Of a DNA stretch of 64,000 nt, positions 7,708-46,685 are shown piece after piece (within the stretch, counting starts at the first letter, position 1; every line of letters starts with the position of its first letter). The translations under genes were made by a program, and so were the position numbers. Source of the DNA: an uncultured bacterium. Its GTDB lineage: Bacteria > SAR324 > NAC60-12. The stretch spans positions 1,481 through 65,480 of the forward strand of contig CAXGMD010000006.1 of NCBI GenBank assembly GCA_964010765.1, written 5' to 3'. The notes beneath the pieces were generated by a model. The model made no database searches, had not been told where the DNA came from, and saw nothing but the letters and a program-made list of their open reading frames with translations.

Positions 7708-7726
7708 TCCTGACGGACAAATACGA

Positions 7727-8707: not shown

Positions 8708-8764
8708 AATTATCTAGCCTTTTCTCTCACATCTTACCTGAAGACGTAAGGTTCTTAAGATCGA

Positions 8765-9164
8765 TTATCCGTTGATGCAGAGAACGGCGGATTCAAACTC
8801 GAATTCTTGTTCGCTAGCGATATCAAAGCAATCAATCATTCCAATACCGACGGCATCAGAACGATCTCTTGTAATCGACTGGACAAAGCGTTGATCTCGG
8901 TCAACAAGCCAAGTTGGGTGCATTTGTCCAGCAAATGAATGAGAACTTCCGTCCAGCACGCCTTCTACTAACACTTCAAGCTCCACTAGCTAGTTGTTCT
9001 TCCAACATCGTCTCGTAAAATGCGTCACGCATCACGTTGATAATAAGTAATTCATTGCAGGTTATGGCCTGCTCTTCCAGCACATCCAAGCCTTGCGATA
9101 TCGTCAGTTGCTGACGCGTCAGGCTTTCCAGTTTGCCAACCATCTCTCGCAAAGTCAGTGACAT
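8765..9164 (-). pseudogene. Two overlapping small ORFs (62 aa + 73 aa) that read as one ~135-aa gene interrupted by a -1 frameshift; possibly a pseudogene or a programmed shift
   Basis: ORF 9164..8976 ends ...MLEEQLASGA*. ORF 8986..8765 starts on GTG (VELEVLVEG...) in the adjacent frame with an 11-nt overlap. No family recognised. Confidence 0.3.
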
Positions 9165-9217
9165 CCTAACCTCCTTATTCGGTTTACGTCAGGGACCCGG
9201 GAAATTGTACATCTGAA

Positions 9218-9244
9218 GATCGAACCGTGGGCTTGTGTTCGATC
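9218..9244. terminator. Hairpin gatcgaac-N11-gttcgatc between convergent/adjacent genes, followed by attttctct on the + strand
   Basis: 8-bp perfect inverted repeat seen directly. Lies 45 nt past the stop of the minus-strand cytochrome gene. Confidence 0.35.
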
Positions 9245-9288
9245 ATTTTCTCTACCTTCTGCAGAGGGTGTGCCAAAAAATAGAAAAT

Positions 9289-10572
9289 CTATTTGTGCTG
9301 AATTTTAGGCCAGTAAGTTGAGAAGTCAAAGCTGGGAGAATGGCTGCCGACATGACAGTTCACACAGGCTTGACGAGCATCCAGTGGTGGGTGGTTCAGT
9401 GGATTCTTGAGGTGTTCTTGGGCAGATCCATGACAGTTTTCACACTGCACATTAGCAAGTTGGGGTGTGAGTTGATTGCTGAGAAAGCCTTTCTTTTGAA
9501 ATCCAACAACATGGCACTGCAAGCACTCAGGATCGAAATCCTTACCGACTCTTGTCAGGGTGGCTAACGCATGGCTGTGTCGACTAGATTCCCAACTTTG
9601 ATGAGCTTGAGTGTGGCAGGTGGTACAAGCTGCAGCTCCAACAAATCGTGTTTCCTGTTGCAGTTGCTGCATCCGCTTTAATCCACTCAGGAATAATTGT
9701 TTGACCTCTTGATCATAGTTTGTGAACAGTGGTGTGAGGGGTTCCCAATCAGCAGTGTCCAGACGGAGCCAGCGAACATCTAACTGATCACTCGAAGAGA
9801 AGCCATGATAGAGTCCCTGCCCTTTGGTAGGGATCATCTGTAAGGGCTGAGTTGCGGTTGCAAAGGTTGTGACCTGATTCAATTCATCATCGTTGGTGCT
9901 ACCAACAAGAATTCGATCGAACCAACCGCTCTGCAGAAATCTATCTGCTTCTACAGATGTACCACGGAAGAGCAGCATTCGCTTGCTTCCTGGTTGGCTC
10001 TGGGATTGCCACTGTTGAATCAGTGCATTGCTGACTGGAAGAACGTTGGGTAGATCGTTTTCGTTCTGGTAGAGCAAATTGGGTGTGACGTAGCCCCAGA
10101 TCTCCCAACGCTCTCCACTAACGTTCTGACTGATGACCTGAGGCCAAGGTAAATCGATAGCGTTGCTGAGCAAATAGGGTAAGGAAGTGTCCCAGGTTGC
10201 CTGACCATAGTTCCATTCGTGAGGTCCTGGAAGAATAGCAGCAGGTTTCAGTAATTTCAGCGCCTGTTGAATCAAGTCTAGTTTCAGCTTTCCCTGAGCA
10301 GAGGGCTCGGGAAAATTGTTGCCCAAATCCAGATACAGCAAATCAGAGTGTTCTGAGCGCCAATTACTCAGTGCGGTTCCCCGACGCTGGAGTCCGCCCA
10401 TATCACCTTCCTCTGCACAGCCACAAGGCTTGATCTCACCACGCAAATCACCAGAGACCACTAGATAGGGTTCAGCATGTACCAGAGTTGCCCCAAGTAG
10501 AAAGGTTCCGAGTAGACCAAGCAGGAAGCGAGTACCTCTACGAGAAAGCGAAGAGACGCTGTGCATTTTCAT
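9289..10572 (-). CDS. Secreted metallophosphoesterase/5'-nucleotidase-like domain fused to a C-terminal tetraheme c-type cytochrome
   Basis: Signal peptide, then SGDLRGEIKPCGC...GGLQRRGTAL (calcineurin-like/5'-NT N-terminal pattern). C-terminus has four CXXCH motifs: CTTCH, CLQCH, CENCH, CVNCH. Confidence 0.7.
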   Translation of the reverse strand: MKMHSVSSLSRRGTRFLLGLLGTFLLGATLVHAEPYLVVSGDLRGEIKPCGCAEEGDMGGLQRRGTALSNWRSEHSDLLYLDLGNNFPEPSAQGKLKLDLIQQALKLLKPAAILPGPHEWNYGQATWDTSLPYLLSNAIDLPWPQVISQNVSGERWEIWGYVTPNLLYQNENDLPNVLPVSNALIQQWQSQSQPGSKRMLLFRGTSVEADRFLQSGWFDRILVGSTNDDELNQVTTFATATQPLQMIPTKGQGLYHGFSSSDQLDVRWLRLDTADWEPLTPLFTNYDQEVKQLFLSGLKRMQQLQQETRFVGAAACTTCHTQAHQSWESSRHSHALATLTRVGKDFDPECLQCHVVGFQKKGFLSNQLTPQLANVQCENCHGSAQEHLKNPLNHPPLDARQACVNCHVGSHSPSFDFSTYWPKIQHK

Positions 10573-11317
10573 TGGTTTGTTCTGCTAGTTGTTCAATGGG
10601 GATCTCTAGCCAGTCTGCGAGAAAGCTGGCTACAATGGGAATACGAGAAGGATCGTTGGGCTTGCCTCGATGGGGAATAGGGCTGAGAAAAGGAGAATCT
10701 GTTTCTAAGATCAGGTGACGCAAGGGGACTCGCTTCAGAGTGTCTCGCAGTTCTTGTGCATTTCGAAAAGTGACGATGCCATTGACTCCCAGTAGCCAAC
10801 CCATTTCTACCAACTGATGAGCCATTTTAGCAGAACTAGTGAAACTGTGAGCCACTCCACCTCGACTGGGGGGATGCTTGTGCAGAAGCACCATCGTGTC
10901 ATCTTCTGCTTCACGACTATGAAGGACGATCGGAAGTTGCAGTTCTTCAGCAAGCTGTAATTGGGCGGCAAAGGCAGCTTGTTGGACCTCCTTCTCTGCA
11001 TACATGTAGTGGTAATCGAGGCCAGTTTCTCCGACAGCAACAATTTCTGTCCGATTGGCAAGGCCGCGAATTTGCTCTGCTACAGTGTCATTGTATTGAC
11101 CGGCATCGTGCGGATGGATTCCCAGAGCTCCATAGACCTCCTCATGATTTGCTGCTGTCTCAGTCACAAAGCTGATCGATTCTGAATCTACTGAGATCGT
11201 CAACAATTTGTTCACTTGGGCGGCCTTAGCCTGGGTAAGGGCTTCTGGTAAAGAAAGTGCGAGTTTGTCCAGATGGCAATGGGTATCGATAAAACTTGTC
11301 ATCACAGGGAAGATCAT
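10538..11317 (-). CDS. tatD: TatD-family metal-dependent DNase/hydrolase
   Basis: Starts with the IDTHCHLD motif. 259 aa. Confidence 0.85.
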   Translation of the reverse strand: MIFPVMTSFIDTHCHLDKLALSLPEALTQAKAAQVNKLLTISVDSESISFVTETAANHEEVYGALGIHPHDAGQYNDTVAEQIRGLANRTEIVAVGETGLDYHYMYAEKEVQQAAFAAQLQLAEELQLPIVLHSREAEDDTMVLLHKHPPSRGGVAHSFTSSAKMAHQLVEMGWLLGVNGIVTFRNAQELRDTLKRVPLRHLILETDSPFLSPIPHRGKPNDPSRIPIVASFLADWLEIPIEQLAEQTNENAQRLFAFS

Positions 11318-27820: not shown

Positions 27821-28385
27821 AGGGGCCTGCGTGAGTCGACTCCTTCTGAAGAAAAGGAGCTTGGAGTGAATGGAAAATAACGGAACAGGGTTCCAACTCT
27901 GAGATCAGGATAATTGGCAGGAAACTAGTGGTGGGTGTTGCCTGAGATCAGCAAATTATCTGATTGAACTGTGCCAAGATTATCGGTTTTCTGAAGACTC
28001 GTCACGCAATCATTGAGAGGGTAAGAAGATGGAGTGCTGCTTAGATAAAGAATACGAGTTTTCGAGGGGTGGATGACTTGTCTTCGTACTGCCTTTGTTC
28101 AGGATTGAACATTCTGCTGCTGGGCTTGTCTTGTTCTATATTTGTTAGTTTAGAACTATTACAAAAAAGTTGCTTTGGTAAGAAAGAATTGGCAATGGAT
28201 TTCCTTTGGAGTATATCTCGCTATTAAAGTGGAAAACTTCTGATCTTAGGAGTTGATCCTAAACCTTGAGAGCAGAATCAACATACCGACTTGAAAGACT
28301 GAGGATCATTGATGGGCCTCCCTGATGTGACCAACGGTTTCACGAAAACAGTCCTTTCAGAGTCGATGAGCGAGCCGAGAAATCT

Positions 28386-32610: not shown

Positions 32611-33069
32611 ATGGCTGAAGAATCTACGCTTGATACTGAGGTGAGGCACTTCATATATCAAACCTTCATAAGTGCATTGAGACCACCGACGACAGAAGAA
32701 ACTGCAAAACGATTTCAACTGCCGATTAATAAAATAGAAAGCGCTTTCGAGCGGCTTGCGGCTACACATGATATTGCACTGGCTCCTGGTAGCCACTCGA
32801 TCTGGATGGCTCATCCATTTTCTGCTTTGCCTACCAACTACACGGCCAAAATAGACGGGAAAAAATATTACGGCAATTGAATTTGGGATGTCTTCGGTAT
32901 TGCTGCCATCCTGGGCAAAAATACCGAAGGTCACACTCCGTGCGGGTGTGGAGAGTGTAATGATCATTTGGATTTTTTGATTGGTAAAAACCAGCCAATT
33001 ACCTCCGAATGGGTTGTGCATTTTGTTGTTCCTGCAAGACAGTTCTGGGAAAAAATTGGTTTCACCTGA
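32611..33069 (+). CDS. MerB-family (organomercurial lyase-like) protein with an in-frame UGA at the catalytic-Cys position; candidate selenoprotein (alternative reading: nonsense pseudogene ending at 32880)
   Basis: GGAG 7 nt upstream of the ATG. N-terminal HTH-like segment resembles MerB. ...KIDGKKYYGN-TGA-IWDVFGIAAILG aligns with MerB ...[11 protein letters not shown]96-ALD99TLIFPALIG. The frame stays open to the TGA at 33067. A stem-loop follows the in-frame TGA. Confidence 0.5.
32891..32930 (+). promoter_or_regulatory. Candidate bacterial SECIS hairpin: cttcggtatt / aataccgaag perfect 10-bp stem, 18-nt loop with an inner 4-bp stem, starting 11 nt 3' of the in-frame UGA (32878-80)
   Basis: Inverted repeat verified base-by-base in the sequence. 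The spacing matches the minimal fdhF-type SECIS (upper stem-loop 11 nt downstream of UGA). Confidence 0.45.
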
Positions 33070-33445
33070 GCTACCATCCTCGCTTTCAGTTCGAAAGCAC
33101 ATTTGCAGAATTGGTTGAAGAGAACAGATCAGAATCATGGAGCAATGATTTCTCTTCAAACCTGCCATCAATTGGCGATTCAGTGGTACTCTGGGCGAGC
33201 AGAAAAACATTGGGAAAGACGCTCGGGTGACTCAACACAGGCAATGTTTGCTGAATTAGGAATGACAGGGCCATTCTGGAGTTTTTGAAGAGCCCTTGTT
33301 AGCGCATATCGACGAAAATTTTGGTCACTGAGAGGCTTCAAGCAACCACCTTTCATTTGGCAACACCAAGGTCTTTTCAAAATTCTTGTGCTATACCCAA
33401 ACCTTTTCAACAAATCGGTTAATCATTCTTTGCTGACCGAAACGC

Positions 33446-35470: not shown

Positions 35471-36475
35471 CTATCCCACAGGATGTTGTTTTCCTGGCCA
35501 TCTATCCCACCATCGTTCAAACAAAGCCAGCTGGCTTGCTGCAAAATCTTTCTGGCTTGGGCTCAGTTCATCAAAGGCATTGAGATGGTGTTGATAGTCA
35601 GCATCGCCCTTGAGAAACAACAGGTATTTGTAATAGAGCACAAGGTCCGGGCCTTCATCAAAGGTGGATAGCGTTTTTAGGGCGTCTTCGAGCTCATACG
35701 CATAGTTTTTTGCTTGGCAATCTCCGCTGAGAGCCATTTGGCAGAGTGCAAACAACTTCAGCACAGGTTGTGGCAGAACGTTGCCAACCCCAGTAATCAA
35801 CCCAATGGCACCACATCGAAGTACTCCGTGGCAAACTTGGGTATCGACCCCAACCAGTAGCTCTAACGCTTCCTCCCCACTGGTGATGTGTTCTGCAGCG
35901 TAACTCAGCGCCTTAGCACCTCCAAACTCCTTGAATCCAACAAGATGCGGGTAATCTTTCCGTAAATCAAAAAACAACTCTGCTTTCGTTTCAAATCCAT
36001 AGTATAGGCTGTTGTAAATCACAGAGGGAAGGTCCACCCCAGCTTCCAAAACCGCAGCCAGATGTGCTCTTTGCGCTGTGGGTGAGGTGCCCCTGGAGAG
36101 TACTCTGGGAATGATCATCAACCCTCTTGCTCCACTTGCCTTTGCATGGACAGCATGAGCAACTGCGTTCTGAGTATTTTGAGCACCGGTTCCCACAATA
36201 ACTGGAAGACCAGCATCGATCAGGGCATTCACTCCGTGGCGACGATGCTCCTCAGAAAGTAACGGCCAGTCGCCCATTGATCCACAGTACACTACTGAAC
36301 TCATTCCTTCTTCCATCAGCTCTTGGCCTTTGCGGACTAGCGCATCAAAATTGGGGATGCCAGATTCGTCGCAGGGAGTCATTAGGGCAGGAATACAACC
36401 ATAAAACGTGTGTGTTGGCTTCATTGCGCTACTCAGTTTATGAATCTGTTTGGGCCATGCTTCGATTTGAGTCAA
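35471..36475 (-). CDS. DapA-family class I aldolase/lyase (paralog of dapA)
   Basis: Schiff-base Lys context GFKEFGG, and TPCDESG...GTGAQNT. Alternative start at 36424 (MKPTHTF). Confidence 0.7.
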   Translation of the reverse strand: MTQIEAWPKQIHKLSSAMKPTHTFYGCIPALMTPCDESGIPNFDALVRKGQELMEEGMSSVVYCGSMGDWPLLSEEHRRHGVNALIDAGLPVIVGTGAQNTQNAVAHAVHAKASGARGLMIIPRVLSRGTSPTAQRAHLAAVLEAGVDLPSVIYNSLYYGFETKAELFFDLRKDYPHLVGFKEFGGAKALSYAAEHITSGEEALELLVGVDTQVCHGVLRCGAIGLITGVGNVLPQPVLKLFALCQMALSGDCQAKNYAYELEDALKTLSTFDEGPDLVLYYKYLLFLKGDADYQHHLNAFDELSPSQKDFAASQLALFERWWDRWPGKQHPVG

Positions 36476-36714
36476 CAGATTTGGATCTGCTTAGTTCAAA
36501 TCAGGCAATTAGGTTTAATTTTAGGAATATTGTCTGTTCAGCTAATGAAGAGAATACTTACCGGAACAGAATCCATTGGTCCAGCCTCCAGACTTTGCTT
36601 GCTACTTCATTATCTACTGAATGATACTTTCGACGCTTTTTCTAATTTTTTGGGCTTGGTATTTTATTCTGCTGAGGCCGGTAATTTTAAAAATTTCTAT
36701 GATTAAGGTTAGTA

Positions 36715-37029
36715 ATGCCAACACTGTTTTATTTTGAAGCCAAATTGAAAATAGGTAAGGAAGAACGATTTCTTCAATTCGTAAACGGCCCTAAAGGCTT
36801 TGCAATCACCAAATCAAAGCCGGGTTTCATTTCGGCAGAAGTTGGACTATCGAAAGATGGTGTGGGTCAAACCACTTTCCACCTGTGGGAGAAATGGGAA
36901 AAGCTGGAAGACTTTGAAAATTATGGCCAAGACCCAGAGCGCTTGCCTGGTGCAGAGTTTGAGGAAATTTTTGCAGATTGTATTGATGGTGTTCCTCGAG
37001 AGATTTTCCCAGAAATCATGGAAGTCTAG
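36715..37029 (+). CDS. Small ABM/Dabb-like alpha+beta-barrel protein (hypothetical)
   Basis: 104 aa. ...FISAEVGLSKDGVGQTTFHLWEKWEKLEDFENY resembles antibiotic-biosynthesis-monooxygenase-type proteins. Weak. Confidence 0.35.
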   Translation: MPTLFYFEAKLKIGKEERFLQFVNGPKGFAITKSKPGFISAEVGLSKDGVGQTTFHLWEKWEKLEDFENYGQDPERLPGAEFEEIFADCIDGVPREIFPEIMEV

Positions 37030-37144
37030 AGTCTCACCCCCATGCAAGAATTCCTATTGCTCATGGAACTACCAACTATCTCTTGCTTAGTAACTGCTAA
37101 TGCACTCGGGATCTAGTCAGCTAAATATCAGTTCTATCATACCA

Positions 37145-37197
37145 GTTCGTTGGTGGATCAAATTTGCCGAAGAATACTTCAGCTACAAAAATTATTG
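37145..37197. repeat. Repeat copy A (~53 bp, ~83% identical to copy B at 42926). Begins with ttggtgga, resembling the tmRNA 3' end core
   Basis: gttcgttggtggatcaaatttgccgaagaatacttcagctacaaaaattatt vs ggtttgttggtggatcaaatttgatcgagaatgattcagctacaataattgtt. Confidence 0.6.
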
Positions 37198-37343
37198 GCT
37201 ATCATTCTTGAAAGCAATCTCTCATTACCTGCGGAAGATAGATGAAAAATTATAATTGAAGAATGACCCGGAGTACTCAGTACAAAAGTTGTTTCAAATA
37301 ATGAATTTATCCTTGATGAACCCAAGTAAAGAAAGAAGGGATT

Positions 37344-39047
37344 ATGATTTTTAATAGACTGTTCTCTAGCTTGGTCTTTGTTGCTTTCTTGTGGAATCCG
37401 GCATTTGCCCAAAGCTCCAAGAAAGCGCTCAAGTACATGGTAGCTACTGCAAATCCAGTGGCTTCCCAAGTTGGCTACGATATTCTAAGCAGGGGAGGCA
37501 ATGCGATTGACGCCATGGTTGGTGTTCAACTCATGCTGAATCTTGTGGAACCACAGAGTTCTGGGATTGGTGGTGGTGCTTTCTTGTTGTTTTATGATGC
37601 CAAACGGAAGGAAGTTACCAGTTTTGACGGTAGGGAAACAGCACCACTCAAGGCAAAGGGAGACTTGTTTCTCAAAGAGGATGGCGGCCCTCTGAAATTT
37701 TTTGAAGGTGTTGTAGGGGGTCGCTCTGTTGGAACACCAGGAACATTGAAACTCCTAGAAGTCACCCATAAAAACTTTGGTTCTCTCCCTTGGCGAGAGT
37801 TGATGCAACCGACAATTAAACTTGCTGAAGAGGGCTTCAGGGTTTCCAAAAGGCTAGCGGCATCGGTGGAGAGGGATGCAAAACGTTTGAAAACTTTCCC
37901 AGCAACAAAATCATATTTCTTCCTAGACAGTGATACGCCAGTTCCCGAGGGAACTTTGTTGCGTAATCCAGATTTCGCCAAAACATTGCGCCTGATTGCC
38001 GCAGAGGGTAGCGACCCATTTTACTATGGTGAAATTGCGAGGGACATTGTTCGTACTGTTCAAGAAGCAAAGGGTAACCCAGGCAAACTATCACTCGCTG
38101 ATTTAAGAAATTATTGGGTTATTGAGAGACAACCAATTTGCCATGACTACAAGCAGTATCAAATTTGTGGAATGGGACCACCCTCTTCAGGAGCACTTAC
38201 CATTGGACAAATGTTGGGGATGCTAAGTCACTTCAATTTGCGAGACCTGTCTCCAAACGGATTGAACTTCACCCATCTTTTTGCAGAGGCCAACCAACTG
38301 GCATTTAAAGATCGAGGTCTTTACATGGCGGATAGTGACTATGTAGACATGCCAACTGAAGGTTTGCTTGATCCGGAATATTTAGAGATGCGGTCCAAGT
38401 TGATCGATCCGAGTAAAGCCTCCGGTAATCTGTCTGCTGGCTCACCGCCGAAAGCTTTGAGTTATCAACTTAGTCCTGACATGTCGCTAGAATTCCCCTC
38501 TACGAGTCACTTTGCAATTGTAGATGCTCAAGGCAACGCTGTCAGTATGACGACCACTATTGAAAACGGCTTTGGCTCTCGCCTGATGACCAGGGGATTT
38601 TTGCTCAACAACGAATTAACCGATTTCTCTTTCCGACCGGAACAGAATGGTCGCTTGATTGCCAATCGACTTGAACCCGGGAAGCGTCCTCGCTCTTCGA
38701 TGTCTCCTACACTTGTGTTCAACGCAAAAGGTGAGTTACACATGGCTGTTGGCTCACCTGGCGGTAGTCGGATCATTCCATACGTTGCAAAAACTCTGTT
38801 GGGGGTACTTGAATGGAACATGGATATACAGGACGCGATTAATCTGCCGAACCTAGCCAAAAATTTTGGTACCCTAGACTTGGAAGCAGAAACCCCTGCA
38901 GAGCAACTGAAAGCAGAGTTGGAACAACGGGGACACAAAGTTAGTGTGCGTTCACTCACGAGCGGAATTCAGGGGATTGTTGTCTCATCAGGTGGACTGG
39001 TTGGTGGGGCAGATCCACGTAGAGAAGGATTGGTTCTGGGTGAATAG
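37344..39047 (+). CDS. ggt: Gamma-glutamyltranspeptidase
   Basis: Signal peptide. Autoprocessing Thr context and ...TSHFAIVDAQGNAVSMTTTIENGFGS (GGT catalytic region). Confidence 0.85.
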   Translation: MIFNRLFSSLVFVAFLWNPAFAQSSKKALKYMVATANPVASQVGYDILSRGGNAIDAMVGVQLMLNLVEPQSSGIGGGAFLLFYDAKRKEVTSFDGRETAPLKAKGDLFLKEDGGPLKFFEGVVGGRSVGTPGTLKLLEVTHKNFGSLPWRELMQPTIKLAEEGFRVSKRLAASVERDAKRLKTFPATKSYFFLDSDTPVPEGTLLRNPDFAKTLRLIAAEGSDPFYYGEIARDIVRTVQEAKGNPGKLSLADLRNYWVIERQPICHDYKQYQICGMGPPSSGALTIGQMLGMLSHFNLRDLSPNGLNFTHLFAEANQLAFKDRGLYMADSDYVDMPTEGLLDPEYLEMRSKLIDPSKASGNLSAGSPPKALSYQLSPDMSLEFPSTSHFAIVDAQGNAVSMTTTIENGFGSRLMTRGFLLNNELTDFSFRPEQNGRLIANRLEPGKRPRSSMSPTLVFNAKGELHMAVGSPGGSRIIPYVAKTLLGVLEWNMDIQDAINLPNLAKNFGTLDLEAETPAEQLKAELEQRGHKVSVRSLTSGIQGIVVSSGGLVGGADPRREGLVLGE

Positions 39048-39460
39048 GTTTCATAAATTGTAAGAGACGCCACTCATCCTGAGTTCGTTGGTAGGTCGTT
39101 AAATTTATCAAGACGATCCTCCAAAGTAGTCTGATTACTTTCTTGCGAACGCATAGTTTGTCTTTACACTATCTACTGAATGATATATTTTTATCTTATT
39201 CATTTTTTTTCAATTTGGTGATTCTGCGCATCTTGTATAGCAATTTTGCCAAAATTTTTGGCTAGTTTCCTGAAGTTATATGTTTAAACTGGCCAATTCA
39301 ATTTTTTGCTAACAGATTGCTTGTGTTTTAATTACCTTCTGGTTGATATTTGGGCTCTCTGCCCAAATTACTTGGGCCTGATGCCGCAGTGTCCGACTCA
39401 TGTGAGTTGTGATCTCACACTGTGCAACGCAACGCTAAATCTGATTATCTAGAGGACCAA

Positions 39461-39892
39461 ATGCTGAGAAAATTGATTTTTGCCTGTCTTATCATGGCGC
39501 TGTTATCTGCTACACCTATCTTTGGGGGTAGTCATTCAAATGAGAAAAAACCGCAGTTCATGTGGATCCGTACTTATGAATTGAAACCTGGGGTGAGTTC
39601 AGTAGAGGCTGAAAAGGTTGCAAGAGGTGTAATGGATTTTGTCAATAACAAACTCCTCCAAGGGAATGGTATTCTTACCATGCTTGTTCCAGTAGCGGGG
39701 CCGTCAAACAAATTTAGCTTCTTTTACATTTCTGACAGTATTGATGACAGAATTATAGGTAGAAGTAGACTGGTAAAGCTTGAGGGGTTTCAACCTCATT
39801 TCAAGGCTATGATGAATATTGTTGAAAGCGCTGACGATCAGTGGTTCATGCTTCCATCACAAGATGTTATTTGGTCTCCTTCTAGTGAATAG
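39461..39892 (+). CDS. Hypothetical secreted protein
   Basis: AGAGGA RBS then ATG 39461. Signal peptide MLRKLIFACLIMALLSATPIFG. Confidence 0.4.
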   Translation: MLRKLIFACLIMALLSATPIFGGSHSNEKKPQFMWIRTYELKPGVSSVEAEKVARGVMDFVNNKLLQGNGILTMLVPVAGPSNKFSFFYISDSIDDRIIGRSRLVKLEGFQPHFKAMMNIVESADDQWFMLPSQDVIWSPSSE

Positions 39893-39913
39893 CGTGTACT
39901 AGTTAACCACCTT

Positions 39914-39936
39914 GGGACCCAATCAAATTGGGTCCC
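39914..39936 (+). terminator. Hairpin gggacccaa-tcaaa-ttgggtccc downstream of the 39461 gene (no clear U-tract)
   Basis: 9-bp perfect inverted repeat, 20 nt after the stop. Confidence 0.35.
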
Positions 39937-40117
39937 GCTGATCCTCTGTGTTAAAATGATGGTTGGTTTAGATCAACTAATTTTTCTAATTGACATATTC
40001 TTATATTTTCAATTTTTTGGCCTTAAATTAAAAAAGAATTTCAGCTAAATTGCTTTGAAAAAAGAATGATCTGCCAACGTGACGAAATGAAATACTAATT
40101 CTAGTTTGAGATGAACA

Positions 40118-40381
40118 ATGAAAGTAATGATGCAAGTGGAATGTAGAGACTGGGATCACTGGAAAAAAGCCTACGATGCTCACGCTCCTGTAAGAGTTGG
40201 ATTTCAACAGGACATCTTTGTAGGTCATGAAGCAGAAAATCCAAACAATGTAGTGTTGATTGTTGAAATTCCTTCTATGGAAGCAATGCAGGAGTTTATG
40301 CAGCGCCCTGATAATGCAAAGGCAATCGCTGATTCAGGAGTGAATGTAGAGAGTATCAAAGTAACTCCTCTTGCAGACTAA
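40118..40381 (+). CDS. Small protein, paralog A of an 87-aa family (see 42050)
   Basis: MKVMMQVECRDWDHWKKAYDAH...MEAMQEF...VTPLAD. Shares a pattern with the ORF at 42050 (M..M.I.C.DW.KA.DA...VG.....MEAM..P....VTP). Confidence 0.5.
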   Translation: MKVMMQVECRDWDHWKKAYDAHAPVRVGFQQDIFVGHEAENPNNVVLIVEIPSMEAMQEFMQRPDNAKAIADSGVNVESIKVTPLAD

Positions 40382-40434
40382 AGAGTCACTACTAAAAACA
40401 GAAATTTTCTCATTTAATCACTGAGGAAAATAGC

Positions 40435-41295
40435 ATGAAAAAGTTTTTCATTGCTCTAGTTAGCATAGTCGTAATTTTATTCGTTGCTGTTGGAGGTGCA
40501 CATTTTTATGGATTACAGAATTTGAGTGCATATCAACTCGATCGATTTACAACAGTAAAAGCTAGTGAATATTCGGTTGCCCTTGAGAGAGGGAAGCATT
40601 TAGCAACCATTAGTGGGTGCAACGGTTGTCATGGGGCAAATTTTCAAGGGAAAGATTTTATAAACGGGGCACCTATTGGATATGTCCCGGCTCCTAATCT
40701 CACCCCTGCTGGACCTGTCGCAAATTATACAGATGAAGATTGGGTGAAGGCTATTCGGCATGGCATAGCGAAAGATGGTAGGGTAATGGTGATTATGCCC
40801 TCAAACCATTATTCGGCCTATGGTGATGATGATCTCGCTGCACTCATTTCTTACATGAAAACATTACCACCCGCTGAAAATAAATTTGGCTCACGAGAAA
40901 TTCAATTTCCTGGATCAATTATTTTTGGAATTCTTGCTTATGATTCATGGCCCGCAAATCAAATTCCTCATGATGAAGTTGGTGGAAAAATAGCACCGAT
41001 TATTGATGAGTCCCTTGAATATGGTCAATATTTGACAAGAATTACAGGGTGTTACGAATGTCATGGAGGGAACTTGGCAGGAAAAGATCCAGACTCCGAA
41101 GGTTCACCTGGTCCGAACATCACTAGAAAAGGCAATCCTGGCAATTGGAATTTCGGGGAATTCAAGAAAGCTATGCAAACTGGTCAAACACCAGAAGGTA
41201 AGACATTAAATCCAGAAAAAATGCCTTGGCCTCATTATGCAGTGATGTCTGATATAGAATTGCGATCGCTGTGGTTGAGTTTAAATTCAATCTAA
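40435..41295 (+). CDS. Membrane-anchored diheme c-type cytochrome
   Basis: N-terminal TM helix. Two heme motifs CNGCHGANFQGKD and CYECHGGNLAGKD, each followed by a candidate Met ligand region. Confidence 0.7.
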   Translation: MKKFFIALVSIVVILFVAVGGAHFYGLQNLSAYQLDRFTTVKASEYSVALERGKHLATISGCNGCHGANFQGKDFINGAPIGYVPAPNLTPAGPVANYTDEDWVKAIRHGIAKDGRVMVIMPSNHYSAYGDDDLAALISYMKTLPPAENKFGSREIQFPGSIIFGILAYDSWPANQIPHDEVGGKIAPIIDESLEYGQYLTRITGCYECHGGNLAGKDPDSEGSPGPNITRKGNPGNWNFGEFKKAMQTGQTPEGKTLNPEKMPWPHYAVMSDIELRSLWLSLNSI

Positions 41296-41540
41296 ATTTA
41301 ACTAACTAACCGGTGACTCAATGTCTTAGCTGGTAAATTAGTTGTGCAATCCTTCAATCTAAGCTTGCAATCTCAATCATGGAGGCCTTCTACCAGATCA
41401 CTAACTCCACACATTATTGATAATTTTTCTTGCTTTTTGGCTACCTTCCAGTCGATTTTTTGTGAGTCAAACTCAAGCTTTCAGTTACGACTGTTTGTGT
41501 CTAAGCTAATTTTTCAAATTTAATTTTCTAAGGCATCACA

Positions 41541-41948
41541 ATGAAAAAGTTTCTAGCCGTTCTTGCCGCTGCAATCATCAATACTCCTGTGTTATTTGCA
41601 GGAGCGCATGTCAATATCCCAATTGATCATCTTGTGGACGGAATGCCTGTTATTTTTATGGTCACCGGGCAAAAGATCACCCCACAGCAACACTCTGAAT
41701 TCAAGACAGCTGTTGACGAATGGTATGCATCAGACTGCTTCATGTCTCAGCAGCACTCAGTTGATATCGTAGTCGATGCTGATGGATCCGTTACCCACGT
41801 TGTACGATGGGCCACTAAGGAAGCATTTCTACGTGATCAAGGAATTCAGTGTGAAGCATTTGAGTCTATGTTTGGCAAGATTGCTCAGATTGGTGGTGCT
41901 GATCTGAAAATGTCTGCAACCACATCGATTGCACCTTCACCGAGATAA
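41541..41948 (+). CDS. Hypothetical secreted protein
   Basis: Signal peptide MKKFLAVLAAAIINTPVLFAGA. 135 aa. Confidence 0.4.
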   Translation: MKKFLAVLAAAIINTPVLFAGAHVNIPIDHLVDGMPVIFMVTGQKITPQQHSEFKTAVDEWYASDCFMSQQHSVDIVVDADGSVTHVVRWATKEAFLRDQGIQCEAFESMFGKIAQIGGADLKMSATTSIAPSPR

Positions 41949-42049
41949 TTTTATTCAGAATCCTATCTGCTTTTTGTTAGCCATAGACCGACAGCTCAAA
42001 TTGGTCAAATGACACTCGCCCTAAAAGTTTTAAATTCAAGGACTCACAA

Positions 42050-42316
42050 ATGCTCAATACAATGGTGATCATAAAAATGGGTAATTGCACTTTTGATGAT
42101 TGGAAAAAGGCTTTTGATGCTGACTCCGAAACCGATGCTCAATTCATGAAGGATATCATTGTCGGCAAAGTGGATGAACATACTGCAATTGTCAGTGCGG
42201 ATGTGTTTGCTCCAGAAAAAATGGAAGCAATGATGTCCGATCCAGAATTTCAAAAAATTGAGGCTGAAATGGGTTTGAAGCACACTGTCTATCAGGTAAC
42301 CCCAGCCTCAGCTTAA
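42050..42316 (+). CDS. Small protein, paralog B of the 87-aa family
   Basis: MLNTMVIIKMGNCTFDDWKKAFDAD...MEAMMSDPEF...VYQVTPASA. See 40118. Confidence 0.5.
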   Translation: MLNTMVIIKMGNCTFDDWKKAFDADSETDAQFMKDIIVGKVDEHTAIVSADVFAPEKMEAMMSDPEFQKIEAEMGLKHTVYQVTPASA

Positions 42317-42396
42317 GAAGTGTCTTCCCAAGCGTGCCATGTCAGGACACTAAATTTACCTTGAGTATGTTTTCACACCCCTACATTGGAGACCTC

Positions 42397-42837
42397 ATGA
42401 AAGCTTACAAACTTGTAACTACACTAGTATTTTCACTTGTGATATCTGCTTTTGCTTTTGCTTCTGAACCGATACCTGACACAGGTTGGGGGGCAGTTCT
42501 AAAAGTTCCAGTAGCAGAAGTTGAACGAGTGGAGCAAGGCTTGATCGAGTGGTCAAATTGGATAAGGGATACTCATCCTATGGGTAAAGAAGAAAATGGT
42601 TTAGAAAGCCTGACCATTACGAAGAGTTATGCATCTGAAAATCACGTTTTCTACGTTATTGTGGAGCGTTACCGAGATAATGCTGGATTAAAAAATCATC
42701 AGCAACTTTTCCAGAGAGACGTAAGAGGTGCTTATGCAAATATGTTCGCCAAACTCTCTTTCTTCCGGCAGTACAGAATAGCGGGCTCGGAACAGAATCA
42801 GACTCTGTACAGTCTGATTCCATCTGTAGGAAAATAA
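42397..42837 (+). CDS. Secreted ABM-like protein (hypothetical)
   Basis: Start chosen at MKAYKLVTTLVFSLVISAFAFA (signal peptide). VFYVIVERYRDNAGLKNHQQLF resembles the ABM monooxygenase fold. Confidence 0.35.
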   Translation: MKAYKLVTTLVFSLVISAFAFASEPIPDTGWGAVLKVPVAEVERVEQGLIEWSNWIRDTHPMGKEENGLESLTITKSYASENHVFYVIVERYRDNAGLKNHQQLFQRDVRGAYANMFAKLSFFRQYRIAGSEQNQTLYSLIPSVGK

Positions 42838-42925
42838 ACAGTTTCAGTTAGAACTTCTCCCAAGCTAATGACAACTGTTGGTGTTATTTGAAGCCTATCC
42901 GGCCAAATAACAGCCCTAATATATC

Positions 42926-42978
42926 GGTTTGTTGGTGGATCAAATTTGATCGAGAATGATTCAGCTACAATAATTGTT
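42926..42978. repeat. Repeat copy B (pairs with copy A at 37145)
   Basis: See copy A. 40/48 identical positions in the ungapped core alignment. Confidence 0.6.
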
Positions 42979-43078
42979 AACGGGAATGTTTGAACGTAAT
43001 ACCTAGTAATTGTTGCAGATCTATTGATTGGCGGTGGAGGATACTTCGGAATTGTGGATATCCTGAACTTTTTTTAAT

Positions 43079-43107
43079 TGGTGGAGGTGGTAACACTTGA
43101 ACTTTGT
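43079..43107. repeat. Degenerate copy of the tmRNA 3' end (att-site relic): tggtggaggtggtaacacttgaactttgt vs tmRNA end tggtggaggtggcgagagtcgaactcgcg
   Basis: 12/12 identical core then 9/17, 21/29 total. Same orientation as the ssrA 3' end at 46127, about 3 kb away. Confidence 0.55.
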
Positions 43108-43201
43108 AGTATGCTCGGAATTACAAGGTTTTTTGAAGACTCGTGTCGCTGTTGAAAATCATTCTCGACTTCACAGTCTAGGGATAAAGGAGAATTTGCT
43201 C

Positions 43202-44095
43202 TCAGATATCTAGCGTGCCTTCTGCTACTTGGATGCAATTCCCACCAATCCAAGTGGTGGTTACCACACCATTTTGCTTGCTTGCCCGGGCTCTCAGTTC
43301 ACTTGGTCTACCCATTTCAACTCCCTGGGCAATCCTCCAACCATAATCTCTGTCCACCCCGTCATCCAGGTGAGCGAGTAATCCAGCTAAGGCGCAATTG
43401 GCACTTCCGGTTGCAGGATCTTCGGTCACCCCATCCAACGGAGCGAACATCCGAGTTCGCAGATCAAATTCATCCTCAGAGCGCACATAGAGATGCGTCA
43501 TCGCTACACCCTGCGCCTGGAGTACTGGAAAAGCGTCTAGATTTGGCCTCGCTTTCTCTAGTGCCTCTCGATCCTTCAATTCGACCATCAAGAAAGGCAG
43601 ACCCACAGAGGCAAGCTGTGGTCTGTGTCTATCCGCACGAATCGCTGAGCTTGGAAGATTCAGCGCTTGGCTGACCGATTCCAAGCTGATCTCCGCTCCA
43701 AGCGAGAGGGGCGTGGGAGCCTGTAGTTCAAAGAAGGGATGACCGTCATTCGGATTCGTTATGGTGACTGGGACCAAACCAGCCTTTTCCTCAAAGACAA
43801 CCTGCAGCGGAGGCTGGGCATCCCCAAGATATCCGTTGTGATAGAGCGTGAAGGCAGTGCCCAGATTGGGGTGACCTGCAAACGGTACTTCCGAGGTAGG
43901 CGTGAAGATCCTCACTTGTTTGGTCTGGCCTTGTTCAGGAGGAAGGACAAAAGTCGTTTCGGAGAAATTGAATTCACGGGCGATCTGCTGCATTTGTTCA
44001 TCGTTCAGACCACTGGCTTCCGGAACGACTGCGAGCTGATTCCCTTGAAAAGCTTGTTTGGTGAAGACGTCACAGATAAAGAATTGATAGGTCAT
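43202..44095 (-). CDS. PhzF-family isomerase (phenazine biosynthesis-like protein)
   Basis: [12 protein letters not shown]...GNQLAVV N-terminal PhzF signature. ORF extends to 44134; start chosen at MTYQFF. Confidence 0.7.
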
Positions 44096-44275
44096 CAAAG
44101 GAACAGGTCTTTCAGTAACAGGAAGCTTTGGCACCCGTCAGCTGCCAGCAGGATTCAACGTATTTTGAGTGAGCGCAATGAGAGCTTTACATCGATAGAT
44201 CTCAAGTAGCAGAGACGACTCAGTTGGACCAAACGGCGCAATTACACCATCTCCCATTTGTCTCTGCTTCTCTCC

Positions 44276-45175
44276 TTACACAGGAATGGCGGTGCCAGCG
44301 GCATTTCTGGCAACATAATTTTGTGGAACTCCCGGAAATATTTCTTTAAATAGGCTCAACATGTTCATCGTAGAACGTCGATCCGAGCTTAAATGCAAAT
44401 GCCCAGGAGACCCTAGCGTGGGGGGCAGCGCAAATCCGTGAGGGGTCCCTGAGTGATCATGAAAATTCCAATCAACTCCAGCCTCATTCATTTCAGCATA
44501 GAATCTTTCCTTGCTTTCATTTGTCACTAGATAATCAGCTGCACCGTTCTCAATCAAAACGACGGCTTTTGTGTTGTAATGGTTTTCACATAATTTCAGC
44601 GGTGGTATTGCGGCACCATATTTTGCTGCATTCGGATCCTCTCCGGTTTGCAACAGACCATGGAAAGAAACCACTCCCCCAACATCCAAGCCACCTCGGA
44701 TACACTCCAGCACCGCCATTCCCCCAAAACAGTAGCCGATCGCAGCTGGGGCAAACGCTTTGTCAACAAAAGGACTCTCCAAGCCTTTTTCCAACCAAAT
44801 CTTCAGCAAAGCTCTGAATTTTTCATGATCGTGATCCAGGGAAACGAGACCCTCAAAACACCGCTTCCTGAAAGCGGGCATAAGCTGCTCATCTTCTGGA
44901 CATAATCTTTGATCAGGTGGCACGAGATCCCCATAAAGATCTGCCGCTAGTCCAACATACCCCAATTTTGCCAGGTACTCCGCAACATCCAGTTCGAAGA
45001 ACTTGAGTCCTTGAAAGTTGTGAAAAATCAACACGAGTGGGCGTGGACCTTGTTCCGCACTCGGCGCCACAAGATATCCTTTGTAGTTGTTGTCTCTGAA
45101 AGAAAAATTGATTTCTGATCTTCGGAGATCCGAACCACTGGGGGAATTTTCTTTTGATTGATTCATGGCTACCAA
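44276..45175 (-). CDS. Dienelactone-hydrolase-family alpha/beta hydrolase
   Basis: IGYCFGGMAVLE nucleophile elbow (Cys nucleophile, as in DLH) ... SFHG ... HGF. Confidence 0.65.
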   Translation of the reverse strand: MVAMNQSKENSPSGSDLRRSEINFSFRDNNYKGYLVAPSAEQGPRPLVLIFHNFQGLKFFELDVAEYLAKLGYVGLAADLYGDLVPPDQRLCPEDEQLMPAFRKRCFEGLVSLDHDHEKFRALLKIWLEKGLESPFVDKAFAPAAIGYCFGGMAVLECIRGGLDVGGVVSFHGLLQTGEDPNAAKYGAAIPPLKLCENHYNTKAVVLIENGAADYLVTNESKERFYAEMNEAGVDWNFHDHSGTPHGFALPPTLGSPGHLHLSSDRRSTMNMLSLFKEIFPGVPQNYVARNAAGTAIPV

Positions 45176-45203
45176 CCGGAAATTGTTGTTGATTGATGAT
45201 GGT

Positions 45204-45824
45204 TCAAACCAAGATTTTCTTGGCTGTTACGACATACAAAGGATCAAAGTTGCTGTTTTCACGGACAAGCTGCTCAGACTGAATTTCACGAAACCCTCCC
45301 GCCTTCTCAAAGTACCAGGAAACGAGTCGACAGTGATCCTCGCCGCTAAACATTCTCCAAGCCAGGATTGCTTTGGTTGGGAACATCCTGTTTGAAAAAC
45401 TCACACAACAGGTCCCATTCGGCTTCAAGACTCTGTAAATCTCTCTAAAGACCGGTACCGGAGAGGTTAAGTATTGAACTGATACGGCAATCGTACAAAG
45501 GTCAAATTCTTCATCACCATATGGCAACTGCTGCTCCGTGTTTAGGTTCTGAATATGGAAATCAGTGAGCTGCGTATTGTTTTGCAGTTCAATTTGATTC
45601 ATTCCATGACCCGAAACCCTAGAGTAGTGCTTGTGATCAGGCAGGTGCGAAACCCAGCTCGACATCAAATCGAGCACGGCATCGCCATCTTTCAGTAACT
45701 GATCATAGTAGTTTCTCAGAACTTGACAGGCATTTTCGTCAATGTGTTTAACTAGCCGTGGGCTCGCATAAAAAAGACGGTCATCATTGGAGTCTTCCTT
45801 GGTAAACAACTGTTCTGGAATCAT
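45204..45824 (-). CDS. Class I SAM-dependent methyltransferase
   Basis: VLDLMSSWVSHLPD (motif I-like) and a Methyltransf_11-type layout. 206 aa. Confidence 0.65.
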   Translation of the reverse strand: MIPEQLFTKEDSNDDRLFYASPRLVKHIDENACQVLRNYYDQLLKDGDAVLDLMSSWVSHLPDHKHYSRVSGHGMNQIELQNNTQLTDFHIQNLNTEQQLPYGDEEFDLCTIAVSVQYLTSPVPVFREIYRVLKPNGTCCVSFSNRMFPTKAILAWRMFSGEDHCRLVSWYFEKAGGFREIQSEQLVRENSNFDPLYVVTAKKILV

Positions 45825-46126
45825 CTGTTATCCTGAAGAAAAGGTCAGCTCGTCCAGGTGGCAAATCGTGATGAAGCAGGTAGGACAGAAGACTGATTCG
45901 ATGCAGCGCAGATGTCAACTGGTTGATGAGCGGGATTTGCTGAATATCCAATCTGACGATCCAGAGACGGATTCATTTAGAAGACGGATGTTGTGGGTGT
46001 CACGATAGGTGCCACTCAGCCAGTTTGTATGGACGGACTAAAGTGAATTTGACTGGAGGAAAAACCGAGGAATCGTTGGTTGTTTCAGGGAAGAAGAGGA
46101 AGAAGTTGTGATTAAATTCGAAAAAA

Positions 46127-46496
46127 TGGTGGAGGTGGCGAGAGTCGAACTCGCGTCCTGATATGCTTTCCCACGAAGCGCTACAAGCTTAGTCGAAACT
46201 TGTCGTTTTCACAGTCGGTGTCGGCAATCGACCGCCTCACGACTGTACACTTCCAGTTGATCTCATCTGACCGTCAGAAGCCCAGTCAGACCAGCCCAAG
46301 TAAAGGGTTACACCTCAACGGAGGCCCTCGGGCCTACCTCCGCGAGACGCCTACTCAGGCAGCGATTGCTGCGTGAGCCGGAGCGTAGTCGCTGTTGTTT
46401 GCAGCTATAATTTTGATGACCGTATTTACGTGGACGTTCATCACCCACGGCTTGCTCTCAGTGAGTTCCACACCCAGTCGAATACCGGGACACCCC
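46127..46496 (-). ncRNA. ssrA: tmRNA (SsrA), one-piece. Predicted tag ANNSDYAPAHAAIAA (resume codon GCA, stop UGA at 46355-57)
   Basis: Reverse complement begins GGGGGUGUCCCGGUAUUCGACUGGG. It contains GACUAAGCUUGUAG and ends GGACGCGAGUUCGACUCUCGCCACCUCCACCA. These match the E. coli tmRNA landmarks GGGGCUGAUUCUGGAUUCGACGGG, GACUAAGCAUGUAG and the T-arm plus CCA. Acceptor stem has a G3:U wobble. Confidence 0.8.
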
Positions 46497-46685
46497 CACA
46501 ACAGACCTTTTAGACTAGCAGCTTTGTGGATTTGTGCCACTGAAATCATTCAGCTTGTGCGGAAGGGAACCGTCCTTGTTCCTTGGTCAGCACTGGAGTG
46601 AACCTCGGCTCGAGTGGTGTTGTGCAGGTCACTTTGGGGCCTTGGTGTTCCCAACAGAGCACCACGACTTGTGTAGCAATCGGGG

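What the first reader, a model, noticed from the sequence alone, without database searches (positions are those of the whole stretch)
37145..42978. ~53-bp direct repeat pair (83% identity) flanking a 5.7-kb module: GGT, diheme cytochrome c and small secreted proteins. Both copies start with ttggtgga like the tmRNA end
gttcgttggtggatcaaatttgccgaagaatacttcagctacaaaaattatt (37145) and ggtttgttggtggatcaaatttgatcgagaatgattcagctacaataattgtt (42926) are direct repeats, both intergenic. Together with the att relic at 43079 and the genuine tmRNA end at 46127, they look like successive, progressively decayed att sites from serial island insertions at ssrA. A second tatctactgaatgata 16-mer is also shared between 36606 and 39169, both upstream of accessory genes.
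Basis: seen in the sequence. Interest (0 to 1): 0.55.

Follow-up and report, generated by a model that had tools for sequence, protein, structure and literature searches.

The report
Internal repeat inside ssrA-linked island
The two repeats are real, but they are not worn-down copies of the tmRNA gene end; they are old paralogous copies of a short non-coding element inside a dispensable 6.6-kb gene block next to an ordinary tmRNA-gene integration hotspot in a marine SAR324 bacterium.

Summary
Copies at 37113-37239 and 42895-43020 share 88/127 nt (E about 1e-14), with an invariant 18-mer inside a 48-nt core. A third, 30-nt fragment lies at 39083-39113.

The att-relic reading of this pair fails three tests:
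- Neither copy resembles the tmRNA 3' part beyond TGGTGGA. Local alignment scores fall below the shuffle mean (p about 0.96), and TGGTGGA occurs 21 times in the window.
- Three sister SAR324 genomes lack about 6.6 kb (36511-43100, or 36467-43187). Both copies lie inside that segment, 0.6 and 0.1 kb from its ends. No single-copy state was found.
- Trees on both flanks indicate the segment is ancestral and was deleted at least twice.

- Metagenome contigs break exactly after the last 25-28 nt of ssrA into at least four different islands.
- 43079-43103 is a genuine displaced ssrA 3' fragment.

The pair is not dispersed, not coding and not a structured RNA. Its 48-nt core evolves about five times slower than its flanks (p about 0.006). 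It has a -35/17-nt/-10 layout about 150-195 nt upstream of the GGT gene. My best reading is a duplicated cis-regulatory element; a recombination scar is the main rival. This is an ordinary, low-interest finding.

The parts
37113..37239 (+). Repeat copy A (127 nt). The constrained 48-nt core is 37149-37196, which is -195 to -148 relative to the GGT start codon at 37344. The copy begins 84 nt after the stop of the 104-aa ABM-like ORF.
42895..43020 (+). Repeat copy B (126 nt). The core is 42931-42978 and contains the perfect palindrome GATCAAATTTGATC and a promoter-like hit, TTGATC-17-AATAAT. The copy begins 58 nt after the stop of the 146/167-aa ORF. No gene lies downstream on the + strand.
39083..39113 (+). 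Partial third copy C (GTTCGTTGGTAGGTCGTTAAATTTATCAAGA), 36 nt after the GGT stop. TTYGTTGGT occurs only three times in the window (A, C and B), all on the + strand.
36511..43100 (.). 6.6-kb dispensable accessory segment holding the ABM-like ORF, A, GGT, C, p156, p87, diheme cytochrome c, p135, p88, p167, B, c4 and the first 22 nt of the ssrA relic. It is absent from L022 with these end points, and absent from L021/L023 with end points 36467/43187. It is present in the window and in L029. G+C is about 0.39-0.47 against about 0.50 in the flanks.
43024..43050 (+). c4: a second ssrA-end-like stretch (TTGGCGGTGGAGGATACTTCGGAATTG). GGTGGAGG occurs only three times in the window, at 43033, 43080 and 46128, all on the + strand.
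43079..43165 (-). Displaced ssrA 3' fragment (the true att relic). The 25-nt core 43079-43103 matches the ssrA end at 19/25. A weaker colinear similarity to the tmRNA continues to about 43165-43178.
43104..46126 (-). ssrA-proximal island remnant carrying PhzF-like, dienelactone hydrolase and methyltransferase genes, with no integrase. It is bounded by the relic and by ssrA. The same three genes occur away from ssrA in SAR324 AAA005 (L024). A second, 86%-identical PhzF fragment with the same spacing to an ssrA core occurs in L012.
46127..46497 (-). tmRNA gene (ssrA). The live att core is its last 25-28 nt (46127-46151/46154).
27985..28007 (+). 23-nt match (87%) to 43127-43149, beside the relic. 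It may mark a still older ssrA-type junction next to the MFS gene. This is a lead only.
36608..36660 (+). Weak second repeat R2a. Its partner R2b is at 39167-39219.

Best explanation
A and B, plus the 30-nt fragment C, are paralogous copies of a roughly 130-nt non-coding element with a 48-nt constrained core. They lie inside an old, integrase-less 6.6-kb accessory segment of a SAR324 genome.

They are not derived from the tmRNA gene end, they are not the boundaries of the variable unit, and they are not active recombination sites in the sampled population. That negative part is shown, and I hold it at about 0.85-0.9.

The segment lies just distal to a genuine displaced ssrA fragment (43079-43165). 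It belongs to a decayed array of islands downstream of ssrA, whose last 25-28 nt are still used as an integration site.

The following is inferred, at about 0.4. The core is a cis-acting DNA element of promoter/operator type. It spans a -35 (TTGCCG/TTGATC), 17-nt spacer, -10 (AAAAAT/AATAAT) layout with a conserved upstream block. Copy A would control GGT from about -150 to -195. Copy B would be a duplicated copy left at the other end of the gene block when the block was assembled; it now has no evident target gene.
For: The repeat is real and has only two full copies.
- See for the repeat itself.
- No further copy was found in the window or in 112 related loci.
- A metagenome scan for the 18-mer gave 43 stretches. 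All 16 full-length matches sit at the two known SAR324 positions, and the other 27 match only the 18-mer.
- Nothing was found in viral, plasmid or phage collections.

The pair is not ssrA-derived and does not bound the variable unit. The segment is ancestral and was lost twice, with different junctions.

The core is constrained. Between the window and L029, the orthologous cores differ at 2/96 positions and the flanks at 39/341 (p about 0.006). The same core is the best-conserved part between the paralogues, at 8/48 differences against 42-56% in the flanks.

There is a promoter-like hit in B, and A has the same hexamer positions at -195 to -148 of GGT.

The element is not coding: no shared ORF, and the A/B differences in every open frame are nearly all non-synonymous. 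It is not a structured RNA: z-scores are -1.1 to +0.2, the covariation term is +0.52, and there is no Rfam hit.
Against: - Copy B has no downstream gene on its strand, so a promoter role for B is unexplained.
- The conserved spacer and upstream block are not typical of a plain sigma-70 promoter.
- In L029-type lineages an IS-like 680-nt insertion separates A from GGT without visible decay of A.
- GGT homologues at 82-84% identity (L030, L031) show no convincing A copy upstream.
- The constraint estimate rests on few substitutions.
- No transcription data were available.
Confidence: 0.4

Rival explanations
1. Recombination scar of an inner module. A circular 5.8-kb DNA carrying GGT through p167 entered a resident copy of the element by Campbell-type site-specific or homology-driven recombination. 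This left hybrid copies A and B as attL/attR of a non-ssrA site, with the invariant 18-mer as the former crossover core.
For: - The direct orientation and the flanking of a gene block fit this model.
- Identity peaks in a central block and falls off on both sides.
- The fragment C right after GGT suggests repeated use of the same motif at gene-block joints.
- The genes of the block occur singly or in other orders elsewhere (L030, L031, L103, L112).
- G+C is low.
Against: - No single-copy or circular-junction state was found in about 60 contigs of this population, whereas the ssrA core shows at least four variants.
- There is no recombinase gene in or near the block.
- Both known deletions ignore A and B.
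- Similarity on both arms of both copies requires attP and attB to have been homologous already.
- No copy of the element was found next to homologues of ABM104 or p146 elsewhere.
Confidence: 0.25
2. Neutral leftover of an old local duplication or rearrangement, with no present function.
For: - There are only two and a half copies, with 69% identity.
- The block shows other internal duplications: the p87/p88 paralogues and repeat R2.
- B has no partner gene.
Against: The 48-nt core evolves about five times slower than its flanks between lineages, in both copies.
Confidence: 0.15
3. One reading: A and B are progressively decayed copies of the ssrA 3' end left by serial island insertions at ssrA.
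For: - Both copies contain TGGTGGA in the ssrA orientation.
- B lies 92 and 148 nt from two ssrA-end-like stretches, c4 and the relic.
- ssrA is a real hotspot with a real relic.
Against: - Neither copy is more similar to the tmRNA than shuffled sequence, and TGGTGGA occurs 21 times in the window.
- A and B share an identical 18-mer and 127 nt of homology that ssrA does not have, and the homology extends to both sides.
- They are not indel boundaries.
- There is no integrase.
Confidence: 0.05
4. A small RNA or 3'-UTR element, or a small peptide gene. All three copies lie 36-116 nt downstream of stop codons of + strand genes.
For: The position of all three copies after + strand ORFs and the core constraint.
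Against: - There is no stable or conserved fold and no Rfam match.
- There is no terminator-like site.
- There is no shared ORF.
Confidence: 0.05
5. Member of a dispersed mobile repeat family (MITE- or REP-like).
For: The size of about 130 nt and the intergenic position.
Against: - There are two copies in 64 kb and none elsewhere in any fetched locus.
- All full-length metagenome matches sit at the same two positions.
- There are no terminal inverted repeats.
Confidence: 0.03

Closest known systems
[quoted passage not shown] Examples are the Dehalococcoides ssrA-GIs with a 20-bp repeat (PMC3146451) and the Islander-type tDNA islands (PMC4383910).
   Same: - The region downstream of ssrA is variable.
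- Alternative islands join exactly at the last 25-28 nt of ssrA.
- A displaced ssrA 3' fragment (43079-43103) lies 3 kb away in the same orientation, bounding a three-gene island remnant.
- G+C is low and there are many small accessory genes.
   Different: - The A/B pair is not a copy of the ssrA end and does not bound an island.
- No integrase or integration module remains in the window.
- The older parts are being lost by deletions whose end points are not the repeats.
Flexible ('additive') genomic islands next to tRNA or tmRNA genes in marine bacteria. This comparison rests on my own knowledge and was not checked in a paper here.
   Same: - Population-level gene-content variation is concentrated at one tDNA-linked locus in an abundant marine lineage.
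- The content is a mosaic of small accessory genes that occur in other orders in relatives.
   Different: Nothing here shows that A/B take part in adding or removing genes.
Integron attC sites, such as the roughly 120-nt chromosomal cassette repeats of Vibrio.
   Same: Similar length, direct orientation, and position after ORFs.
   Different: - There is no intI.
- There is no hairpin-forming dyad symmetry.
- There is no GTTRRRY core.
- There are only two and a half copies across nine genes, rather than one per cassette.
Duplicated sigma-70-type promoter/operator regions.
   Same: -35 and -10-like hexamers with 17-nt spacing lie inside the constrained core. Copy A is at a plausible distance upstream of GGT.
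   Different: - Copy B has no target gene.
- The spacer and upstream block are conserved more than the hexamers.
- Transcription was not measured.

Membership tests
att relic of a tmRNA-gene-targeted island (displaced 3' fragment of ssrA) | The repeat is a copy of the 3' end of the target gene | tested here: not met
   A and B against the tmRNA 3' part give a Smith-Waterman score of 7, below the shuffle mean of 8.3-8.4 (p 0.95-0.97). Only TGGTGGA is shared, and it occurs 21 times in the window. As a positive control, 43076-43103 scores 16, which 0 of 2000 shuffles reach.
att relic of a tmRNA-gene-targeted island (displaced 3' fragment of ssrA) | The repeat marks the end point of a presence/absence difference between related genomes | tested here: not met
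   L021, L022 and L023 lack 36467/36511 to 43100/43187. A and B are 0.6 and 0.1 kb inside that segment and are lost together. By contrast, contigs diverge exactly at 46151/46154 in ssrA.
att relic of a tmRNA-gene-targeted island (displaced 3' fragment of ssrA) | An integrase gene lies at one end of the bounded segment | tested here: not met
   Pfam scans of 20 ORFs across 26-46 kb, and the precomputed Pfam annotation of all called genes from the MFS gene to speE, show no integrase, recombinase or transposase.
Dispersed repeat (MITE/REP-like) | Many copies at unrelated genomic positions | tested here: not met
   An nhmmer profile of A and B finds no other hit in the window or in any locus. Of 43 metagenome stretches, the 16 full-length matches are all at the two known positions. 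A complete genome of this lineage was not searched.
Integron attC / gene-cassette site | An imperfect palindrome that folds as a hairpin, GTTRRRY/RYYYAAC core sites, one site per cassette, and intI nearby | tested here: not met
   Fold z-scores are -1.1, -0.9, +0.06 and +0.17. The consensus fold is -9.4 kcal/mol with a covariation term of +0.52. There is no intI. GTTGGTG does not fit GTTRRRY, as seen directly in the sequence.
Known RNA family (Rfam 15) | Covariance-model match at or near the gathering score | tested here: not met
   Only the tmRNA passes the gathering score. In 36300-43300 nothing has E below 0.7, and nothing overlaps A or B.
Sigma-70-type promoter | -35 and -10 hexamers 16-18 nt apart, upstream of a gene, with a mapped transcription start | tested here: inconclusive
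   B passes the consensus scan (TTGATC-17-AATAAT, 9/12). A has TTGCCG-17-AAAAAT at the same columns but falls below the scan threshold. The region as a whole has fewer promoter-like hits than shuffles. A transcription start cannot be tested with these tools.
Protein-coding small ORF | An open frame shared by the copies, with mostly synonymous differences | tested here: not met
   No ORF of at least 20 aa is shared between A and B. In the frames that are open in both copies, the differences are almost all non-synonymous, as seen directly in the sequence.

The most novel reading that the evidence does not exclude
The motif TTYGTTGGTRG(N)AAATTT occurs only at A, C and B, each just after a + strand gene or gene block. 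It could mark joints used by an unrecognised, trans-acting recombination system that assembles and reshuffles single accessory genes in the SAR324 ssrA-linked island. That would be an integron-like cassette platform without intI and without hairpin sites. The constrained 48-nt core would then be the recombination site.
Probability: 0.06. Interest if true: 0.6.

Novelty: new member of a known kind. Interest (0 to 1): 0.2.

Why it matters
The main value is corrective. A plausible-looking series of 'decaying att sites' turns out to contain one true ssrA relic, and perhaps two or three, together with an unrelated internal repeat.

The locus is a clean example, in the abundant and uncultured SAR324 lineage, of the well-known tmRNA-gene integration hotspot. 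At least four alternative islands join at the same 25-28-nt core. One carries triose/dihydroxyacetone-sugar genes, one is phage-like, and one carries IS elements with a beta-lactamase-family gene. An older accessory block carrying GGT and a diheme cytochrome c has been lost independently in sister lineages.

If the 48-nt core is a control element, it would be one of the few candidate cis-regulatory sequences known for SAR324. On its own that would be a modest result.

Tried and rejected
- **Chance similarity.** Rejected.
- **ssrA derivation of A/B.** Rejected by BLAST and shuffle tests.
- **tRNA-like 3' end.** I read the reverse complement (CAAATTTGATCCACCA) as a tRNA-like 3' end. No T-arm pairing is possible, as seen directly in the sequence.
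- **Sigma-54 promoter.** The GG-to-GC spacing is 9 or 12 nt instead of 10, and B lacks the GC. Rejected by inspection.
- **dif/Xer (IMEX) site.** There are no inverted 11-nt arms. Rejected by inspection only.
- **Integron attC, structured RNA, terminator.** Rejected.
- **Coding potential.** Rejected.
- **ABM104 and p167 as paralogues that would explain the repeat as duplicated 3' flanks.** No protein similarity.
- **Single-copy or 'intermediate' contigs.** Exact-protein look-ups of GGT, PhzF and ABM104 found none; all places share the same order.
- **The element next to homologues of GGT, p146 and ABM104 in other lineages.** Absent or unconvincing. The apparent A-like stretch 192 nt upstream of GGT in L030 is too weak to use.
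- **Homology confined to ORFs in L030, L103, L111 and L112.** At first this looked like cassette boundaries. It is equally expected from saturated intergenic divergence at about 80% coding identity, so I do not count it as evidence.
- **Insertion of the 6.6-kb segment into the window lineage.** Rejected in favour of ancestral presence with at least two losses. The relic is complete only where the segment is present, the segment's divergence equals that of its flanks, and the flank trees agree.
- **Walking to the far end of the alternative islands to find their integrases.** Not possible under the look-up restrictions.

Full report
**1. The observation**

The two strings are at the stated coordinates. 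Without gaps the similarity runs 106 nt at 72%. With one gap it runs 127 nt at 88/127, covering 37113-37239 against 42895-43020. The E-value is 9e-16 between the two regions and 7e-15 against the whole window. GTTGGTGGATCAAATTTG is identical in both copies. At up to 3 mismatches it is found only there, against 0.10 expected. Both copies are intergenic. A third, partial copy C lies at 39083-39113, 36 nt after the GGT stop. The 9-mer TTYGTTGGT occurs only three times in the window (A, C and B), all on the + strand, against 1.1 expected on both strands of 64 kb.

**2. The setting**

The window comes from a marine SAR324-cluster bacterium. This follows from the record titles of related genomes and from the many Tara and other ocean metagenome contigs that carry identical proteins.

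The tmRNA gene is at 46127-46497 on the minus strand. Between it and the MFS transporter gene at 26.6-27.8 kb lie accessory-type genes and no integrase or transposase. These genes are:
- SNase
- HiPIP
- a TPR protein
- DUF4174
- an S9 peptidase
- a DHDPS-like protein
- a 104-aa ABM-like protein
- GGT
- several small ORFs
- a diheme cytochrome c
- a PhzF-like protein
- a dienelactone hydrolase
- a methyltransferase

G+C drops to 0.37-0.42 at 30-33 kb and to 0.39-0.41 at 39-43 kb, against about 0.50 elsewhere.

**3. ssrA is a live hotspot**

Contigs L001, L005, L006 and L008 are identical to the window up to exactly the first 25 nt of the ssrA 3' end (TGGTGGAGGTGGCGAGAGTCGAACT). They then continue into TIM, RpiB, PfkB, Dak and ABC-transporter genes instead of the rest of ssrA.

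Other contigs break at 46151-46157 and run into different content:
- a phage-like segment (L064, L095);
- a segment with a second PhzF fragment at 78-86% nucleotide identity to the window's PhzF in the two contigs, which in L012 is followed by IS transposases and a beta-lactamase-family gene (L012, L063);
- an HTH-gene segment (L086).

This is the pattern described for tDNA islands in PMC4383910 and PMC3146451.

The relic at 43079-43103 matches the ssrA end at 19/25, a score of 16 that 0 of 2000 shuffles reach. It has a weaker colinear continuation into the tmRNA body (p = 0.02). It lies about 100 nt past the PhzF stop. In L012 an intact ssrA core sits at the same spacing past the second PhzF fragment. 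The PhzF-DLH-methyltransferase unit (43104-46126) is therefore an old ssrA island remnant bounded by ssrA and its displaced fragment.

Two further ssrA-type traces exist. One is c4 at 43024-43050; GGTGGAGG occurs only at 43033, 43080 and 46128. The other is a 23-nt match between 27985-28007 and 43127-43149 (p = 0.001). Both are leads only.

**4. The pair is not part of that series**

A or B aligned with the 3' part of the tmRNA gene scores 7. That is just the 7-mer TGGTGGA and is below the mean of shuffled sequences (p about 0.96). TGGTGGA occurs 21 times in the window. A and B share 127 nt of homology on both sides of that 7-mer, including an 18-nt identical block that ssrA does not have. Their common ancestor was therefore not an ssrA end.

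**5. The pair does not bound the variable unit**

Three sister genomes are 92-97% identical to the window and colinear with it, but they lack both copies:
- L022 jumps from the DHDPS start region directly to the PhzF stop region and lacks about 36511-43100.
- L021 and L023 share a different junction and lack about 36467-43187.

A more distant lineage, L029 (about 91% identical), has the whole segment with both copies and C.

Neighbour-joining trees of both flanks place the window with L023 and L021, with L022 and L029 outside. The segment's divergence from L029 (6-9%) equals that of the flanks. The ssrA relic is complete only where the segment is present, truncated at 43101 in L022, and absent in L021 and L023. 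The simplest history is an ancestral segment that was deleted at least twice. Neither deletion used A or B. No contig shows a single hybrid copy.

**6. The pair is not dispersed**

A profile of A and B finds nothing else in the window or in any fetched locus. The metagenome scan for the 18-mer gave 43 stretches. The 16 matches that extend to full length are all at the two known positions, and the other 27 share only the 18-mer. Viral, plasmid and phage collections gave only chance hits or none.

**7. What the pair is not**

It is not a known RNA family, not a stable or conserved fold, not a terminator, not coding and not attC-like.

**8. What the pair may be**

Between the window and L029, the 48-nt core (37149-37196 and 42931-42978) differs at 2/96 positions, while the surrounding repeat and flanks differ at 39/341 (p about 0.006). 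The same core is the best-kept part between A and B. This points to constraint on a DNA-level element in both copies.

The core spans a -35/17-nt/-10 layout. B passes the consensus scan. In A the layout sits at -195 to -148 of the GGT start. I therefore favour a duplicated promoter/operator-type element, at about 0.4. The main rival is a recombination scar from assembly of the GGT-to-p167 block, at about 0.25. A neutral duplication comes next, at about 0.15.

The weak points of my reading are:
- Copy B has no target gene.
- The IS-like insertion in L029 separates A from GGT.
- There are no transcription data.

**9. Gene mosaicism**

GGT occurs alone in other contexts at 82-84% identity (L030, L031). 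p146 and p88 occur in another small-gene island (L103). ABM104 follows p135 in L112. Gene order in this block is therefore fluid over longer times. That homology ends at ORF borders is expected from saturated intergenic divergence and is not evidence for cassettes.

**10. Verdict**

This is a real but ordinary low-copy internal repeat. The att-relic idea applies to 43079-43103 and to the ssrA end, not to the pair. The locus is a new example, in SAR324, of the known tmRNA-gene island hotspot.

Noticed in passing
window 46127-46154; loci L001, L012, L022, L063-L065, L086, L095, L102: At least four different islands abut the last 25-28 nt of ssrA in population variants. One carries TIM/RpiB/PfkB/Dak/ABC-transporter genes. 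One is phage-like, with a terminase-small-like ORF and large secreted proteins. One carries a PhzF fragment, followed in L012 by IS transposases and a beta-lactamase-family gene. One carries an HTH gene.
   Followed up: partly
L012:5880-5940 and L022:120-190 (minus strand): The island arm next to the ssrA core carries the direct repeat ACACGTGTCCA-n-ATACGTGTCCA, which may be arm-type integrase binding sites.
   Followed up: no
L022:1-60 (minus strand): The contig end reads ...GGTCGCAGGTTCAAATCCTGCCACCGCCACCA. This looks like the 3' end of a tRNA-like gene about 150 nt beyond the ssrA core, inside the inserted island.
   Followed up: no
window 43024-43050: A second ssrA-end-like stretch (TTGGCGGTGGAGGATACTTCGGAAT) lies 28 nt before the relic. 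GGTGGAGG occurs only here, in the relic and in ssrA.
   Followed up: partly
window 27985-28007 vs 43127-43149: A 23-nt match at 87% (p 0.001) lies next to TGGTGG- and TTGAACT-like motifs at 27929-27975. It may be an older ssrA-type junction that would make 28.0-43.1 kb an earlier island.
   Followed up: partly
L029:9265-9944 (window 37315-37320): An IS1/HTH-like insertion of about 680 nt lies 29 nt upstream of the GGT start in L029-type lineages. The aligned window coordinates overlap by 6 nt (37315-37320), which may be a target duplication.
   Followed up: no
window 40118-40381 and 42050-42316: Two small ORFs (87 and 88 aa) are paralogues at 31% identity, with weak DUF3764 similarity. The diheme cytochrome c shows its internal domain repeat at 40580-40656 and 41012-41088.
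   Followed up: no
window 36608-36660 and 39167-39219: A second weak direct repeat (53 nt, 70%) contains the exact 16-mer. It lies upstream of the ABM-like ORF and of p156.
   Followed up: partly
window 32649-33313: This stretch of about 665 nt is absent from L022, which is another small indel in the accessory region.
   Followed up: no
L024 (SAR324 JCVI-SC AAA005) 7484-10894: The methyltransferase-DLH-PhzF trio, with one extra ORF, occurs away from any tmRNA gene. This is consistent with the trio having moved as a unit.
   Followed up: partly
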